The position numbers and the translations under genes are program-made. Positions 951 to 56,898 of a stretch of DNA of 64,000 nucleotides are shown in pieces; positions within the stretch are counted from its first letter, which is position 1; the number at the start of each line of letters is the position of its first letter. Origin of the DNA: Octopus vulgaris (lineage: Eukaryota); contig OX597816.1 in NCBI GenBank assembly GCA_951406725.2, forward strand, positions 41,664,001-41,728,000, given 5' to 3'. The notes below the pieces were generated by a model. It made no database searches and was not told where the DNA came from. It saw only the letters and a program-made list of their open reading frames with translations.

Positions 951-2386
951 TCTCACACGCACGTACTTATAAGAGACATTTCTAAACTGGCGCTTTCCCT
1001 TCTTCGAATATAGTAGAATGTATGAAATTTACAGAGGAATAACTTTTATATTACGAGGCCAAATGAACGACAGGCTTCATTCCCAGTCACGTTGTTTCGC
1101 CTTGTAGCAAATATCGTTCTCTTTACTATAATTATAATTTTAGTACGGAATTTGTATCAGATTAAATTATCTTAAATATATTATAATTTATGTCACATTG
1201 ATATTTTATGTAACATGTCATTTGTTAAGGTAAGACGTAAACGAATATGGGTGGGTTTAAATAAAAAGAACATACAGGAAATGATTAGTATTGAGATGAT
1301 TTTTTGTTGTAGTGTAAGATTATGCCCATAAACGGTTTTTTTCCCCGGGATTAAATGGTAGACTGTGTATATAATACGTGTATGAATACAGACGCCGTCT
1401 TTCAAGTGATAGAAGAAACACGAATGCACTGAATTCCATCAACCACTGATTGAAAACTAGTAAAAATAATTGTCTAGTATATTATATGCGAATGAAATAT
1501 ATAAGAACTTAATTTTAAAAAAAATGCATGGGCAAGCCATAATATTTCGGCCGATTTCTAGATTCGATTGAAAAAGGTCCTAACCTCCATTAACGCATTG
1601 TACTCAACGTTATCATTAACTACACACAGTCTGTCTATCAGTTCTTATATACGTGAAACAACTAAGAAATTTTAAGTATCACAATATCTATGCACGCATG
1701 CCTCGTGTTCTTTCTTGTTTCTTTACTGATAGTATTTCGTGTAGAAAACATTGATGTTTTTGCTTTTATTCTCTGTTCAATTTCCTTTGACGTTGTTGTG
1801 TGTCTTGATTTGTTTTTTAGGTTTAGTTAATCAGCATTCATAAGATTCAGACTTTCAGTAGCCTATTTACTATCATTTATTTGTAATCGACTATAGGAAA
1901 ACCAATGCATAATATGCCATTTCCAAATTTGGGATAAGGTGAACAGTAAGAAACTGCACAGCACAAATTTAAATTAGTATAATTCTCAGGAGAATTATTG
2001 CATCTTTAAATACATCGTCTCAAAACCCACTGATTTTTACTCAGTGGTAATTATCATCACTGCAGTGGACTTTGTTTAATGGTTCACGATATATGTGTTA
2101 TTTTTCTGGTCTGTATAGTAAATCAATGTCAGTAAACGAATGATTTAGACCTCCCATTTGAGAACGTTTGTGTTGAAGCAACTTCGTCAAATTTTGTACA
2201 TCTTGTGCGTTTCCTTTCAAATATGATAGCGTTATGCCTACGGATATAACATCGGCATCGATGCAATAAAAATAAACACTGAATGTGAGCTATGCTCATG
2301 TTTTATGCTGTTCTATATTTAAAAGATGAAAAATTATGTACATCATTTACATTTAACGGATATTTGTCCTAATCGTGTTTGCTGTG

Positions 2387-2430
2387 AATACAACGTTTCG
2401 GCTAATATACCTTCCAGCCTTCATCAGGTG
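2387..2430 (-). ncRNA. Minimal type I hammerhead ribozyme motif (left arm, weak stem I)
   Basis: Minus strand reads tcac-CTGATGA-a-ggctgg aaggtata ttagcc-GAAA-CG-TT-gtat. Core intact; stem I has a mismatch. Confidence 0.55.
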
Positions 2431-2496
2431 AATTTGGAAAATGTTAACATCGAAAAATACTTTAGGAATGAGAATCCATGTTCGAAATTTCCCCCA

Positions 2497-2543
2497 AGAC
2501 ACCTGATGAAGGCTGGAGGGTATATCAGCCGAAACGTTGTGTT
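2497..2543 (+). ncRNA. Minimal type I hammerhead ribozyme motif (Penelope/retrozyme type, likely dimeric)
   Basis: gacac-CTGATGA(2503-2509)-a-ggctgg/tcagcc stem II-GAAA(2531-2534)-CG-TT-gtgtt. Stem I gacac/gtgtt, palindromic ACGT at stem III, GUU cleavage triplet (2536-2538). Confidence 0.75.
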
Positions 2544-3156
2544 AACAACAATCAAGATGAGGACAAATATCCATCAAATGTAAATAATGTACTCATGTTT
2601 TATAGTTTGTTCACTAAATTGTTTTAAAATTGATCACGCCGTATTAGAATTGCGTTTCTATATTCATCTATTTGGATGGCAGTATATGGTAAAGATAGCA
2701 AAATATTACATACGAAATAGCCTTTCCGCTTAACGTTGAGCTCCATATCTGATGCTCAGACACAAAATATAACCAAAAAAATTTTAAATATTGTCCTATT
2801 TTAACTTATATTTTATTTAATCGTGATTCTATAATTACTTCTTAGAAATTACTGTCACGATGCTTCATATTTAAAGAAAAACGATTAGTCTTCTTAACCA
2901 GGGATGCCTCCCAATGTTAATGTTAATACGTTAATGTTATTTCGGTAACATTAACGTATCTAGAAATGGGACCTCTAGAATTTAATTCCCTTTAACTGCA
3001 TATTGAAACCATTAAGCCGCTTGTGTTTATATTCATTTATCCACCACCAAATTCTTGGAAACAGGAAAGGCGATGCAAATGCAATCACAATGAAACTGCC
3101 AAGAGGCAAACCTGAATTATGGCATTTGAACATATTAAAGGAAATTAAGATATTAA

Positions 3157-4124
3157 AAGAAATCGAGTACCGTTGGTTGTGGTGCTCAAGGTTGTGGTAC
3201 GGGTGTTTGTGATACCGGCGGTTGTGGTACCTGTGGTTGTGGTACCTGTGATTGTGGTACCTGTGGTTGTGGCAACTGTGGTTGTGGTACCAGTGGTCGA
3301 GGTACGGGTGTGGGTGGTGCCAGCGGTTGTGTTGCTCAAAGTTGTGGTATGGTTGTTTATGATAACGGTGGTTGTGATACCTGTGGTTGTGGTACCGATA
3401 GTTGTGGTACCGGTGGTTGTGGTACCGGTGGTTGTGGTACCGGTTGTTGTGGTGCACAAATTTGTGGTACCGGTGTTTATGATACCGGTGGTTCTGGCAC
3501 CTGTTTGTGGTACCGGTGGTCGAGGTACGGGTGTGTGGTGCCAGTGGTTGTGGTGCCGATTTTTGTGTGTGGTGACTGTTGTTGTGACGCTGGCGGTTGC
3601 GGTGCCGGTGATTGTGGGCCAGCGATTGCGGTAATGGTTGTTCTGAAGCTGGTGGTTGTGGTAACAGTATTTGTGATGCTGATGTTTCTTGTGGGCGTTG
3701 TTATGAGGCCGGCCGGCCGTTGTGGTACTGGTGAAGAGAAGGTGGAGGGGGAAGGGAATAAGGATGATGAGAATTACAAGCAAGATGATGTCGATGATGG
3801 AGACGACGATGTGGACGAGACGAAGACAAGGAAAATGAAAATGGCGATATTGTTGATTATGATGATGATGATGATAATGATAATGATGATGATGATGACG
3901 GGGAGGAGGCGGAAGAGGTGAGTAATGATGAATACGGGCATGACGATGACAGTGATGATGATGGTGGCGACGGCGATGACGCTGCTCATGACATTGAGAA
4001 TTTTGATTGTGATCAACAAAATGGCGATGACGCTGATAACACTCATGATATCACCGGTTATGCTGAAGATGCTGTGGTTGAGGAAGGTAGTATGTATAAG
4101 TCATGTCTCTGTATATTACAATGA
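3157..4124 (+). pseudogene. Gly/Cys-repeat + Asp/Glu-rich protein with C-terminal CaaX (about 320 aa reconstructed); six frameshifts, either pseudogene or assembly indels
   Basis: GCGTG-type repeats carry synonymous third-position variants (acc/acg, ggt/ggc, tgt/tgc) and run into a gat/gac-mixed acidic tract ending YKSCLCILQ*. Frame changes at about 3505, 3536, 3567, 3617, 3714, 3818; no stop in the corrected frame. Start or upstream exon not identified. Confidence 0.6.
3175..3730 (+). repeat. 15-bp minisatellite (ggttgtggtaccggt consensus) with higher-order blocks
   Basis: 15-nt period; blocks beginning GCGAQ/GCVAQ/CCGAQ at 3175, 3325, 3445. Confidence 0.92.
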
Positions 4125-7473: not shown

Positions 7474-7852
7474 ATCTACCAGTCTTCTATGACATCTGTC
7501 AGTATTCAACTTCAATCGTACCGGAGGCACATGCCAAGGGTAATGGAGGAGGGGGTTAGGTAAACCGACTGATATAACCACAGACTTGACTGGTGTTTCC
7601 AAGTGATCAGTTCGTCATTGAGCAAGGGGAGGGACTTAGGTCAATTTTTCTATTCCATATAAGGTCTGAGGCGTGAGAGTTGTAGAGAGCAACCAGCATA
7701 TTTTGCCTTTTACTTGCTCCAGTCAATAAACTACAGCCATACTGGAGGACAGCCCTGAAAGTTTTATATATATGTATATATGTATATATATATAAAATTT
7801 ATATATATATATGTATATATGTATATATATATAAAATTTATATATATATGTA

Positions 7853-7902
<50 letters not shown>

Positions 7903-7905
<3 letters not shown>

Positions 7906-8508
7906 GCCTAAATATCTTTCACCTGCGCTGCCTCCGGAAAATCCTTCGCATCAAATGGCAGAATCATGTCCCCAACAAAGATGTCCTCAAGCAAGCAGGA
8001 ATACCAAGCATGTTTACACTCCTCACACAAAGATGTATGAGATGGATTCGACATGTTATCCGTACGGAAGATGGCAGAATCCCCAAGGACATACTCAACG
8101 GAGAGCTTGCTAGGGGCACTAGGTCTGTGGGAAGACCGTTCTTACGATACAAGGATGTTTGCAAAAGGACATGAATGTCTGCATCATCAATATTACCAAC
8201 TGGGAAGCAGTTGCCAGCAACGGTGGCGATTGGCGACGTACTGTAAAAGAGGGAACACAAAGGAGTGACAGAGAGAGAGAGGAGAAATGGAAAGACAAGA
8301 AAAGACGTCAACAAGAAAGTATGACATTACAACCAGCCAGGCAAAGTCTTCGCTACATTTGCGGCACCTGCCAGAGGGAGTGTTTGTCCAGGATAGGACT
8401 ACACAGCCACAGCAGGAGATGTATTAGGACATGAAATGTAAAAGCCGGACTAGATTATTTTATGCGCAACGCCATTGTCTCCCGAGACAAAAAGGATGCC
8501 AACAACAA
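7903..8508 (+). mobile_element. 5'-truncated RTE-clade LINE (3' end of RT ORF + 3' UTR)
   Basis: RLNIFHLRCLRKILRIKWQ..RW..HV.R.EDGRIPKDIL.GEL..G.R..GRP.LRYKD and terminal CxxC..SRIGLHSH..C zinc finger. 1-nt frameshift near 8168. Closely similar to 59712-60420. Confidence 0.92.
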
Positions 8509-53479: not shown

Positions 53480-55605
53480 TTCATGTGCATGTGATAGTAC
53501 AGAATATTATGAATAAAGTGAAAGCAGAAGATAGATATTTGCCGAGGAAACAAAAAAAAACAGAAAATGAAAATACTAATAACGTAACAATTACGAAAAT
53601 CGGAATACTTCGAAAATGCAGAGAAATTAATCTCTACTTTTCTTTCGTAAAAGCTTGCGTAAATAAATCAAAAAAAAGACTTTGATAATAAAGAATTTTA
53701 ATGCCTCGTTTAGTCTGACAGCTTCTTAATGTTTTGATTATTTATGATACATTTAATCCCAAATTAAACTATAAAATAAAAATAATCAAATTTTGAAACA
53801 CACATACAGAAGCACGCTGCCTCGATTAGTCGTACTTATAAGCGTATTTACGCAATTATTCATATACTCACACGCACAAATACATTAATAGTGATGTCTG
53901 CGAGTGCGCGCGTGTGCCCGTGTCTATGTGTCAGTGTTTGCTTGCGTTTGTAAGTATACACATATCGAAAGTGGTAAGCCGAAAATACTTCTATTGATTA
54001 AATACACATGCATACACACAGACACACACATACACACATATGTATACGTGCATATGGGTTTGTGTTTTTCAGAGTATGTATACATACAAAATGTTATGGA
54101 GCGAGATCCTTATTGATTATATACATGTGTGTATGTCATCTGTGTGTGTGCTTGTCTGTTTGTGCGTATGAGATATGTATGTTTCTATCTTGTTTGCTCT
54201 TGTAGCTATGTTTATGCACGTGGGAGTCTGAATAATGAGTTCATCATATCATAATATATATCTAATTAATTTATGATTATGGAAAATATGCTTACAGACT
54301 CATCCTGAGAGCATACAATACGTAAATAAAGAAGCTAACAATTTCATTATAGTTATTAATGTGATATTATTTACCAGTGCTTTTTTTTTTACTTGTTATT
54401 CTTGATTAGAGATTGCGTTTTATAAATATTTCTGATTTAGATACATGATCAGCAAAGTTGAAAGGATTGCTGTTAGTTTATAACATCACCCCAAGTAAGT
54501 TAATGTATCGTCTCCGAAATTATGGATGGCAGAGCTGACCACAGTAGGACTGGATCTCAGAATATAAAGAGCGTGAAGTATTACACAACTCTCTTTCCCA
54601 AGCTTGATCGAGTTTATCAATCCCCTGCTTTACTTTTATGTATTATCATAACAAAGTGCATAATAATGTGTATATATATTAATGATATTATTAAGTTATA
54701 TATAATATTATAGACATAAATCTATATATGTATTGTTTTTGTATTTGTGACCGTTTATGCATGGATGATACATATACGAAAGAATTAATATCGGTGTTAT
54801 TTAAGTTGAATTTCTGTAAATGCGTATGTTTAAAAGTAACAACTATATGAATATTCCTTTCCTGTAATATAACTGAGGGGCATATTCAAATGGTAGTAAT
54901 GCTGTTCTGTGGAATGGGCTATGCGAGAGCCGTTAGCAGTATAATAGTTAAGACAGAAAATGCATGGTGATGAAGTAATAAAGGTAGGTAATTTTGTAGA
55001 TCTTTATGAAACCACAAGCGTTAAGGTGTTTCAAAAAAGAATACAGAACACTACAACGGTACAGTCTTCGTATTCTTTATTGGAGTAAGAGCGGAGTCAC
55101 TTGGCCTTACAAAAAAATTGAGTATGATCAAAAATTTTTTGGAACTCTTCCGTAAGTATATATTTTAACTTAAAATATTCGGAATAAGGGCGTTATTTTT
55201 AGTGTTCCAGAGATACTCACCAGGCGAATTATCAAAAGTTAAGAATAATAACGTTATGAGATACAGAGCTTGATACTAGCGATACTAAGACATTTAGAGT
55301 CAACGTATCTGCTTTGGACTTGCATGCGAGGGTGTAGTAGTAACAAAAACCGATTTGACTTATAAAATAATTACATTCATAACTAGGTATGCTTATATAT
55401 ATCGGACTATATTTTTACATGGAAAATTTAAAACACGGTAATTTACTTTGAAAGTATGTGGCTGCCATCTTTAGTGAGTCAAATCAATGCATTGAGTCTC
55501 AGTCATTGGGTCTAACGAAGACAAGCTTATACCGAACTGCACTTCACATGTTATTAATTATAAAACAAGCATACATCGTTCTATATTGAAGCGATGAGGA
55601 ATTAG

Positions 55606-56275
<670 letters not shown>

Positions 56276-56898
56276 GCAGTATACATCGTAGTAGAAGTAT
56301 TGCGAGATTTCCTGAGTGAATATACGAATGAATGTGTGCATATAAGGAAGTATGTAAGCAAGTATGTATGTATGTAAGCACGTATGTATGTATGCATATA
56401 TATGTGTGTGTGTGTTTGTAAGTATGTATGCATGTATGGATTTTAAAGGCGTGTGCCCGAGTTGACAGAGCGCTGGACTGAGAATTACAAGACCGGACCG
56501 ATTGGTGTGTTGTGTTATTCAGGAAAACATATCATTTTGCGCGGTTCACTTTAAATTTACATGTGGCAACTTAATATTTGACATGTCTCACAGTCTGTCT
56601 CTGTATAATCTGTGTCAATTTAATCAAAAAAGGAATCTCGTTTGCACCACAAATATATGATACTCTAGACATATCGGCAATGAATGTTGGTCAGCAAAAA
56701 TTGCGGAACTGAGGAGAGTACACATATGTAAGTATATTTGCATGGATTGATGTATATTTTTAGGTATGTATGGAGGCACGAATAGACGTGCGTACGTGCA
56801 TACGTAGGTATATATGTTTGTATATATGTTTGTAGAATGTATAGCTGTGTATATCGCAATCTGTCAACGTGTATTGTATTTCTACACTGCACTTCTAA

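What the first reader, a model, noticed from the sequence alone, without database searches (positions are those of the whole stretch)
2336..2592. Inverted pair carrying an apparently intact minimal hammerhead ribozyme
Seen: two about 95-bp inverted arms, each with CUGAUGA / stem II / GAAA. The + copy (2497-2543) has a 5-bp stem I, a GUU site, one extra A after A9, and ACGU where stem III should be. Known: minimal type I HHRs with a tiny palindromic stem III are characteristic of Penelope-like elements and cleave as dimers. Inference: this is a 5'-truncated, inverted insertion of the same family as 55606-56275 and supplies the intact ribozyme that locus has lost. A read-through transcript would fold the arms into dsRNA that masks the ribozyme.
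Basis: partly seen in the sequence, partly recalled or inferred. Interest (0 to 1): 0.75.

Follow-up and report, generated by a model that had tools for sequence, protein, structure and literature searches.

The report
Penelope retroelement stub with minimal hammerhead
This back-to-back repeat is a single short insertion left by a very common Penelope-type jumping gene; one arm keeps a complete self-cutting RNA motif (cutting untested) that it inherited from the family, and the locus itself is likely an ordinary inactive copy.

Summary
2307-2591 is one insertion between 12-bp target duplications (CTCATGTTTTAT), made of two head-to-head arms. The + arm carries a complete minimal type I hammerhead (2498-2543); the - arm has lost stem I but keeps a 32-nt tail. 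Both arms are the terminal repeat (pLTR) of an abundant Penelope/Poseidon-type retrotransposon whose RT plus GIY-YIG-type ORF I found in the same genome. The 35-nt ribozyme core occurs exactly 1,630 times. Among 59 copies chosen on protein similarity the core decays like its flanks (4.6% against 4.7-5.4%), so this copy is intact by inheritance, with no sign of locus-level selection. It does not supply 55606-56275, which is a separate insertion. Inverted pLTR, tail, target duplication and minimal hammerhead are all published PLE features, and the scan reported this kind before on other DNA. Family-level extras: 72 of 78 inverted pairs have exactly one tail and none has two; the arms share subfamily variants; many 5' ends stop at a tRNA-like segment inside the pLTR. 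These fit one uncut RNA primed twice (inferred). Cleavage and transcription of this locus are untested. Low interest.

The parts
2295..2306 (+). Left copy of 12-bp target-site duplication CTCATGTTTTAT
   Evidence: 29 of 43 family inverted pairs have a flanking direct repeat of 8 bp or more against 31 of 1806 mismatched pairings
2307..2338 (-). 32-nt pLTR tail (3' extension), on this arm only; in parent copies this sequence runs on into the RT ORF
2339..2441 (-). Short tailed arm: 5'-truncated pLTR piece, 16 of 133 letters differ from the family majority
2387..2432 (-). Decayed hammerhead: core and stem II kept, stem I reduced to 2 bp
2441..2450 (.). Head-to-head junction, 10-nt palindrome ATGTTAACAT
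   Evidence: sequence
2446..2591 (+). Longer tail-less arm: pLTR body from the end of the (AAT)n tract to the AATAATGTA repeats; 7 of 145 letters differ from the family majority
2498..2543 (+). Complete minimal type I hammerhead motif, GUU site, predicted cut after 2538; overlaps the start of the parent's reading frame (TPDEGWRVYQPKRCV)
   Evidence: activity untested
2592..2603 (+). Right copy of the 12-bp target-site duplication
55571..56289 (.). Separate inverted insertion of the same family with its own 9-bp duplication ATACATCGT (55571-55579, 56281-56289); both arms include the tRNA-like segment and microsatellite; both hammerheads broken

Best explanation
The locus is one 285-bp insertion, between 12-bp target duplications, of two head-to-head end pieces (pLTR) of an abundant Penelope/Poseidon-type retrotransposon; its complete hammerhead is the family's standard sequence and is likely idle at this site. 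Shown: boundaries, duplication, one tail, family membership, a parent with RT plus C-terminal GIY-YIG-type ORF, the hammerhead overlapping the start of that ORF, neutral decay of the core among copies. Inferred mechanism: the element's protein nicked both strands 12 bp apart and primed reverse transcription from both nicks on an uncut RNA, once at the tail end and once about 30-40 nt further in; the two incomplete cDNAs were joined at their truncated ends, giving overlapping inverted arms of which only one has the tail. Inferred for the ribozyme: it would act in the parent's tandem RNA, as a dimer through ACGU or with help from the element's protein; at this locus a read-through RNA would pair arm with arm and hide it.
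For: Duplication and arms. Family size: 1,630 exact 35-mers, control 0; 3 of 59 protein-picked copies have that exact 35-mer, which scales to roughly 30,000 copies, wide margin. Parent: of 30 loci picked by the endonuclease-like ORF, 26 continue into the tRNA-like segment and 23 into the hammerhead body; L091 has a 569-aa frame with RVT_1 E 2.7e-6, below Pfam's cut-off, 40% identical over 575 columns to P0069, whose matching C-terminal part hits GIY-YIG. In 5 of 30 loci the hammerhead or tail runs into the ORF start. Neutral decay: core 26/562, upstream 107/2255, downstream 139/2560 non-CpG changes; 11 of 59 copies intact. One tail in 72 of 78 pairs, none in 6, two in 0; the longer arm is tail-less in 33, tailed in 25, equal in 14. 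Arms agree at position 7 in 41 of 47 pairs, Fisher p 5e-6. Only 3 of 291 arms start in the 10-nt bin of the cut site, like neighbouring bins. Literature: PMC3846280 (inverted pLTR, 31-bp tail, 8-10-bp TSD; passages); PMC11167929 (both strands cut and extended, two RT start sites define the tail, hammerhead overlaps ORF start, is protein-assisted and not needed for insertion in vitro).
Against: No empty site was seen, so the duplication is read from sequence and family statistics only. 6 of 47 pairs disagree at position 7, so some pairs come from two templates, neighbouring insertions or later mutation. The - arm is more than twice as diverged as the + arm (16/133 against 7/145), which one insertion date does not predict, although across 48 pairs there is no such bias (5.3% against 5.1%). 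No intact full-length parent was found; the ORF fragments tested give no Pfam GIY-YIG hit themselves. [quoted passage not shown]
Confidence: 0.88

Rival explanations
1. Same element, but the inversion arose by fold-back: one cDNA or RNA snapped back at a palindrome and copied itself (self-priming as proposed for rotifer Penelope).
For: A 10-nt palindrome sits at this junction; a palindrome ATATGCCC-AC-GGGCATAT lies where many family 5' ends cluster; shared variants between arms and one tail per pair are expected too; PMC3846280 proposes self-priming (passage).
Against: Fold-back of a cDNA that starts at the tail end makes the tailed arm the longer one; the tail-less arm is longer in 33 of 72 pairs, including this locus. 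PMC11167929 shows priming from both target strands.
Confidence: 0.25
2. This locus yields an active or regulated ribozyme RNA: the + arm is transcribed, cuts as a trans dimer with another copy, or is switched off by the inverted arm.
For: The motif is complete; the hammerhead fold of the isolated 46 nt (-12.0 kcal/mol) is close to its minimum (-12.6); thousands of partner copies exist.
Against: The stub lacks the tRNA-like segment, the family's only candidate promoter seen here; the core decays neutrally among copies and 11 of 59 are intact anyway; a read-through RNA pairs the arms; minimal hammerheads showed no cleavage as monomers and low cleavage as dimers in PMC4209133; an ACGU duplex alone is worth about -1.7 kcal/mol.
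Confidence: 0.05
3. The repeat is an independent tRNA-derived SINE or retrozyme that borrowed a Penelope end.
For: 26 of 30 loci picked by the tRNA-like segment show no parent sequence more than about 20 nt upstream of it; a tandem array of 8 hammerhead units exists (L110).
Against: The tRNA-like segment is part of the coding parent's own 3' end in 26 of 30 ORF-picked loci; Rfam and ARAGORN do not call it tRNA; 6 of the 8 array units lack the cut site. A short Pol III RNA made from the parent's pLTR would explain the pile-up without a separate family.
Confidence: 0.12
4. Chance resemblance to a hammerhead.
For: No Rfam hammerhead match; no compensatory stem changes among copies of this family.
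Against: The same layout, always with the extra nucleotide, occurs 28 times (20 distinct sequences) in 24 of 80 metagenome loci encoding relatives of the parent protein, reversed control 0. The common core variant is at the free position 7: 563 extra genome matches against 64 for the invariant U4.
Confidence: 0.02

Closest known systems
Inverted pLTR insertions of endonuclease-containing Penelope elements, e.g. Pen2a_Av (Arkhipova et al. 2013, PMC3846280, passages read; Craig et al. 2021, PMC8557442, passages read)
   Same: Head-to-head 5'-truncated pLTRs, 30-40-bp tail on one end, 8-15-bp target duplication, palindrome at the junction, pLTR plus tail covering the first codons of the ORF.
   Different: Here only the two stubs remain (285 bp). 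The parent's pLTR contains a tRNA-like segment and an (AAT)n tract, not mentioned in the passages read.
Minimal hammerheads of metazoan PLEs (Cervera and de la Pena 2014, PMC4209133, parts 1-2 of 4 read)
   Same: Short stem I (5 bp), long stem II (6 bp), extra nucleotide between 9 and 10.1, G10.1-C11.1, palindromic 15.2-16.2; that paper also reports pairs on opposite strands 100-700 bp apart.
   Different: New sequence family; GUU site; activity not measured here.
Poseidon of Anolis carolinensis, PAc (Frangieh et al. 2024, PMC11167929, parts 1-2 of 4 read, supplement not seen)
   Same: RT plus C-terminal GIY-YIG, hammerhead overlapping the ORF start, tail further downstream, inserted copies span the cut site.
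   Different: PAc was tested in vitro; this family was not. In the text read, no rule of exactly one tail per inverted pair is given.
Metazoan non-LTR retrozymes (PMC7229834, passages read; bioRxiv 10.64898/2026.07.22.740005, part 1 of 5 read)
   Same: Type I hammerhead in short non-coding repeats related to PLE pLTRs; the family has one tandem array of about 215-222-nt units (L110).
   Different: This locus is inverted, not tandem, and its hammerhead is minimal; no circular RNA shown.
Helenus TRIMs with tRNA-derived LTRs (Kojima 2024, PMC10886601, passages read)
   Same: A tRNA-like promoter sequence captured in the terminal repeat of a retroelement.
   Different: Helenus is a non-autonomous LTR element; here the segment sits in the pLTR of a coding Penelope element, and it is absent from this stub.

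Membership tests
Minimal type I hammerhead (PLE type) | Core C3-A9, G12-A14, A15.1-U16.1, H17 in type I order | tested here: met
   + arm 2503-2538; - arm core also present
Minimal type I hammerhead (PLE type) | Stem I 4-5 bp, long stem II with G10.1-C11.1, extra nucleotide after A9, palindromic 15.2-16.2 | tested here: met
   + arm: 5 bp, 6 bp, extra A, CG; not met for the - arm (stem I 2 bp)
Minimal type I hammerhead (PLE type) | Stem covariation | tested here: inconclusive
   None among copies of this family; 20 distinct stem sequences in related PLEs, control 0, but the descriptor demands pairing
Minimal type I hammerhead (PLE type) | Self-cleavage as dimer or with protein | not testable with these tools
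   needs in vitro assay
Canonical hammerhead (Rfam families) | Match to an Rfam hammerhead model | tested here: not met
EN+ Penelope-like element (Penelope/Poseidon type) | Single ORF with RT and C-terminal GIY-YIG in the parent | tested here: met
   L091 569 aa, RVT_1 E 2.7e-6; full-length alignment to P0069 whose C-terminus hits PF01541; no direct GIY-YIG hit on the genome's own fragments
EN+ Penelope-like element (Penelope/Poseidon type) | pLTR arrangement: the 3' repeat equals the ORF start, with hammerhead inside | tested here: met
   same frame in an 847-aa relative P0003
EN+ Penelope-like element (Penelope/Poseidon type) | Inverted 5'-truncated copy, optional 30-40-bp tail, short TSD | tested here: met
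EN+ Penelope-like element (Penelope/Poseidon type) | Placement in the Penelope/Poseidon clade by RT phylogeny | not tested
   assigned from domain order and the lack of an extra linker Zn finger by eye; no tree with named references
Non-LTR retrozyme | Tandem same-strand units each with a complete hammerhead | tested here: not met
   this locus is inverted; array L110 lacks the cut site in 6 of 8 units
tRNA-derived SINE | tRNA-derived head with box A and box B | tested here: inconclusive
   absent from this stub; in the family box-like motifs by eye, no Rfam or ARAGORN call, weak blastn hits all to phage tRNAs, E 0.05-2
tRNA-derived SINE | Independent of a coding element's own sequence | tested here: not met
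   the segment lies in the coding parent's 3' end

The most novel reading that the evidence does not exclude
This family shows how Penelope elements make their inverted ends: a tRNA-type (Pol III) promoter inside the pLTR yields a short uncut RNA, and the element's protein primes it twice, one RT start site at each target nick, the second cDNA displacing the first. That would explain the strict one-tail rule (72 of 78, never two), the shared variants of the arms and the freedom of either arm to be longer, and would make the pLTR behave as a built-in SINE.
Probability: 0.35. Interest if true: 0.55.

Novelty: new member of a known kind. Interest (0 to 1): 0.2.

Why it matters
The locus itself matters little: it is one of tens of thousands of decaying stubs, and its layout and ribozyme type are published. 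The family is a large natural data set for an open question, how Penelope elements form inverted ends and a one-sided tail; the counts here (never two tails, shared variants, either arm longer, no 5' ends at the cut site) are predictions that the existing in vitro Poseidon system can test. A tRNA-type promoter inside a pLTR would also blur the line between SINE and Penelope fragments in repeat annotation.

Tried and rejected
Rfam on the window and on 2440-2600: no hammerhead, only microsatellite-driven miRNA-like hits. ARAGORN and Rfam on the tRNA-like segment: no call. Expression: no RNA holder listed; in one run guessed to be RNA, contigs of family sequence were many and the unique flanks 1800-2285 and 2610-3338 had no cover, which is no evidence either way. 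In two other runs (X2, X4; organisms A and C) unique flank contigs run into both arms, so the insertion is present there; X3 was uninformative; no empty site was seen and that question stays open. Pile-up of 5' ends at the cut site, as a sign of cleavage in vivo: not found. Tailed arms being more diverged in general: not found. Compensatory double changes at stem II pair 2 within the family: none beyond ordinary mutation among 51 matches. Other hammerhead-like cores in the genome (L141, L166, L167) had no nearby parent-like ORF in 3 kb. First metagenome scan with one protein found nothing. I recalled that an octopus genome paper names an abundant SINE; the name gave 0 papers and the paper is not held, so no link to a named repeat could be tested; octopus SINEs of Ohshima and Okada 1994 were seen only as a reference line. 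Searches for a Pol III promoter in a pLTR and for a twin-priming or template-switch model listed no paper that by title or abstract start describes them; most subscription papers and Repbase were not searched. The Cys/Gly-rich frame next door has no useful Pfam match.

Full report
Observation. The sequence shows two inverted arms, 2329-2437 and 2493-2601, 83% complementary over 109 nt. The + arm holds a complete minimal type I hammerhead at 2498-2543: stem I GACAC/GUGUU, CUGAUGA, one extra A, a 6-bp stem II, GAAA, CG, and a GUU site with the predicted cut after 2538. It is the only match of my full descriptor in the window and the reversed window gives none. The - arm keeps core and stem II but only 2 bp of stem I. 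Rfam finds no hammerhead. The arms meet in a 10-nt palindrome at 2441-2450.

Family. The window lies in a 2.8-Gb animal genome; that it is an octopus is my inference from size and repeats, and earlier scan notes say the same. The 35-nt core-plus-stem-II sequence occurs exactly 1,630 times, control 0. Copies show a constant order: tRNA-like segment, (AAT)n, about 55 nt, hammerhead, about 55 nt, optional tail. The locus at 55.6-56.3 kb is another inverted insertion of the family, with its own 9-bp duplication and both hammerheads broken.

Parent element. One copy (L044) had an endonuclease-like ORF end directly upstream. Of 30 loci picked by that protein, 26 continue into the tRNA-like segment and 23 into the hammerhead body. 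L091 has a 569-aa frame with an RVT_1 match (E 2.7e-6, below the curated cut-off); it aligns at 40% over 575 columns with P0069, whose matching C-terminal part hits GIY-YIG, and near-full-length relatives are 810-855 aa. The genome's own fragments gave no direct GIY-YIG hit. In 5 of 30 loci picked by the N-terminal part, the hammerhead body or tail runs on into the ORF (4 translated). The frame through the + arm reads TPDEGWRVYQPKRCV, and an 847-aa relative begins with TPDDG...PKRCV (1 of 120 database proteins showed this). So the arms are the pseudo-LTR of a Penelope/Poseidon-type element and the hammerhead overlaps the ORF start, as in anole Poseidon (PMC11167929). I found no intact full-length copy.

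Is the ribozyme real, and is this copy special? At family level it is real. In 80 metagenome loci that encode relatives of the parent protein, 24 carry the same layout (28 hits, 20 distinct, all with the extra nucleotide, 21 on the ORF strand); reversed sequences give 0. The descriptor requires pairing, so the variety of stems is partly built in. In the genome, a wildcard at the free core position 7 adds 563 matches and a wildcard at invariant U4 adds 64; this is one subfamily variant and also a conservative Asp/Glu change, so it is suggestive only. At locus level nothing is special. Among 59 of 83 hits that span the motif, from loci chosen on protein similarity, non-CpG changes are 26/562 in the core, 107/2255 upstream and 139/2560 downstream; 11 of 59 are intact by my criteria and 3 of 59 have the exact 35-mer, which scales to about 30,000 copies with a wide margin. 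No compensatory changes appear within the family. The two arms are on opposite strands and cannot form a cis dimer; a read-through RNA is predicted to be a long hairpin (-125.2 kcal/mol, z -15.7) in which the motif is paired to the other arm with mean probability 0.94. PMC4209133 (parts 1-2 of 4 read) reports no cleavage of a minimal monomer and low cleavage of dimers. Transcription of the locus was not shown.

How the inversion likely formed. Of 43 inverted pairs, 29 have a flanking direct repeat of 8 bp or more, against 31 of 1,806 mismatched pairings. Of 78 pairs, 72 have exactly one tail, 6 none and 0 two; the longer arm is the tail-less one in 33, the tailed one in 25, equal in 14 (pairs were defined as the outermost opposite arms in a fetched locus, and most loci were picked through one arm). 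The arms agree at position 7 in 41 of 47 pairs (p 5e-6). Only 3 of 291 arms begin in the 10-nt bin of the cut site, so templates were mostly uncut; many loci were picked for an intact hammerhead in one arm, which biases this count. PMC11167929 shows that a PLE protein cuts and extends both target strands and starts at two RNA sites that bound the tail. I infer that one uncut RNA, or two from one source, was primed from both nicks, one start site each, and the two cDNAs joined at their truncated ends. Fold-back self-priming (PMC3846280, passages) is the main rival; it fits the junction palindromes but predicts that the tailed arm is always longer, which fails in 33 of 72 pairs and at this locus. 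Six discordant pairs and the unequal divergence of this locus's arms (16/133 and 7/145) are unexplained; the latter is not a family trend.

The tRNA-like segment. It is absent from this stub but lies in the parent's pLTR. In 26 of 30 loci picked by it, parent homology stops within about 20 nt upstream. That fits a Pol III start or a reverse-transcription stop at a palindrome there. The tRNA origin rests on box-like motifs seen by eye and weak hits to phage tRNAs; Rfam and ARAGORN do not confirm it.

Comparison and verdict. Inverted truncated pLTR, one-sided 30-40-bp tail, short duplication and minimal hammerhead are all described (PMC3846280, PMC8557442, PMC4209133); opposite-strand pairs 100-700 bp apart are mentioned for Schistosoma. 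Supplements of these papers were not read and may bear on how new the one-tail count is. Three earlier scan notes reached the same kind of reading on other DNA; I saw them after forming mine, and one led me to PMC3846280. Verdict: real, a new member of a known kind, interest 0.2; the family-level mechanism is the only part worth follow-up.

Noticed in passing
L190-L219; window 56007-56122: A tRNA-like segment sits inside the pLTR of the coding parent, and 26 of 30 copies picked by it end within about 20 nt upstream, at a palindrome ATATGCCC-AC-GGGCATAT; Pol III start or fold-back point.
   Followed up: partly
L110:2204-4113 (G000:C2 near 2.73 Mb): Tandem array of 8 hammerhead units of about 215-222 nt without the tRNA-like segment; 6 of 8 lack 3 nt at the cut site; the array is closed by an inverted tailed piece.
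   Followed up: partly
P0003 residues 18-32; window 2499-2591: The reading frame through the hammerhead is kept in a 55%-identical full-length relative, so a cut would fall inside the coding region; P0119 begins with a similar hammerhead-like peptide.
   Followed up: partly
L141, L166, L167 and G000:C14:75231400, C12:7744672: Hammerhead-like cores with unrelated stem II sequences, probably remnants of other PLE families.
   Followed up: partly
window 3157-3921: Open Cys/Gly-rich frame built on a 15-bp repeat, followed by an Asp-rich low-complexity stretch; no useful Pfam match; contigs of a run guessed to be RNA cover 3600-3815 and 3980-4090.
   Followed up: partly
window 2310-2442 and 55578-55760: In both window loci the tailed arm is 12-13% diverged and the tail-less arm about 5%; not a trend across 48 pairs.
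   Followed up: yes
window 2926-2959: Perfect 14-bp inverted repeat ATACGTTAATGTTA / TAACATTAACGTAT with a 6-nt spacer.
   Followed up: no
window 7686-8174: Fragment resembling the C-terminus of an RTE-type non-LTR retrotransposon ORF (recognised by eye, not tested).
   Followed up: no
L240, L265, L273: Related PLEs in metagenome contigs also show hammerhead pairs on opposite strands in tail-to-tail position downstream of the ORF.
   Followed up: no
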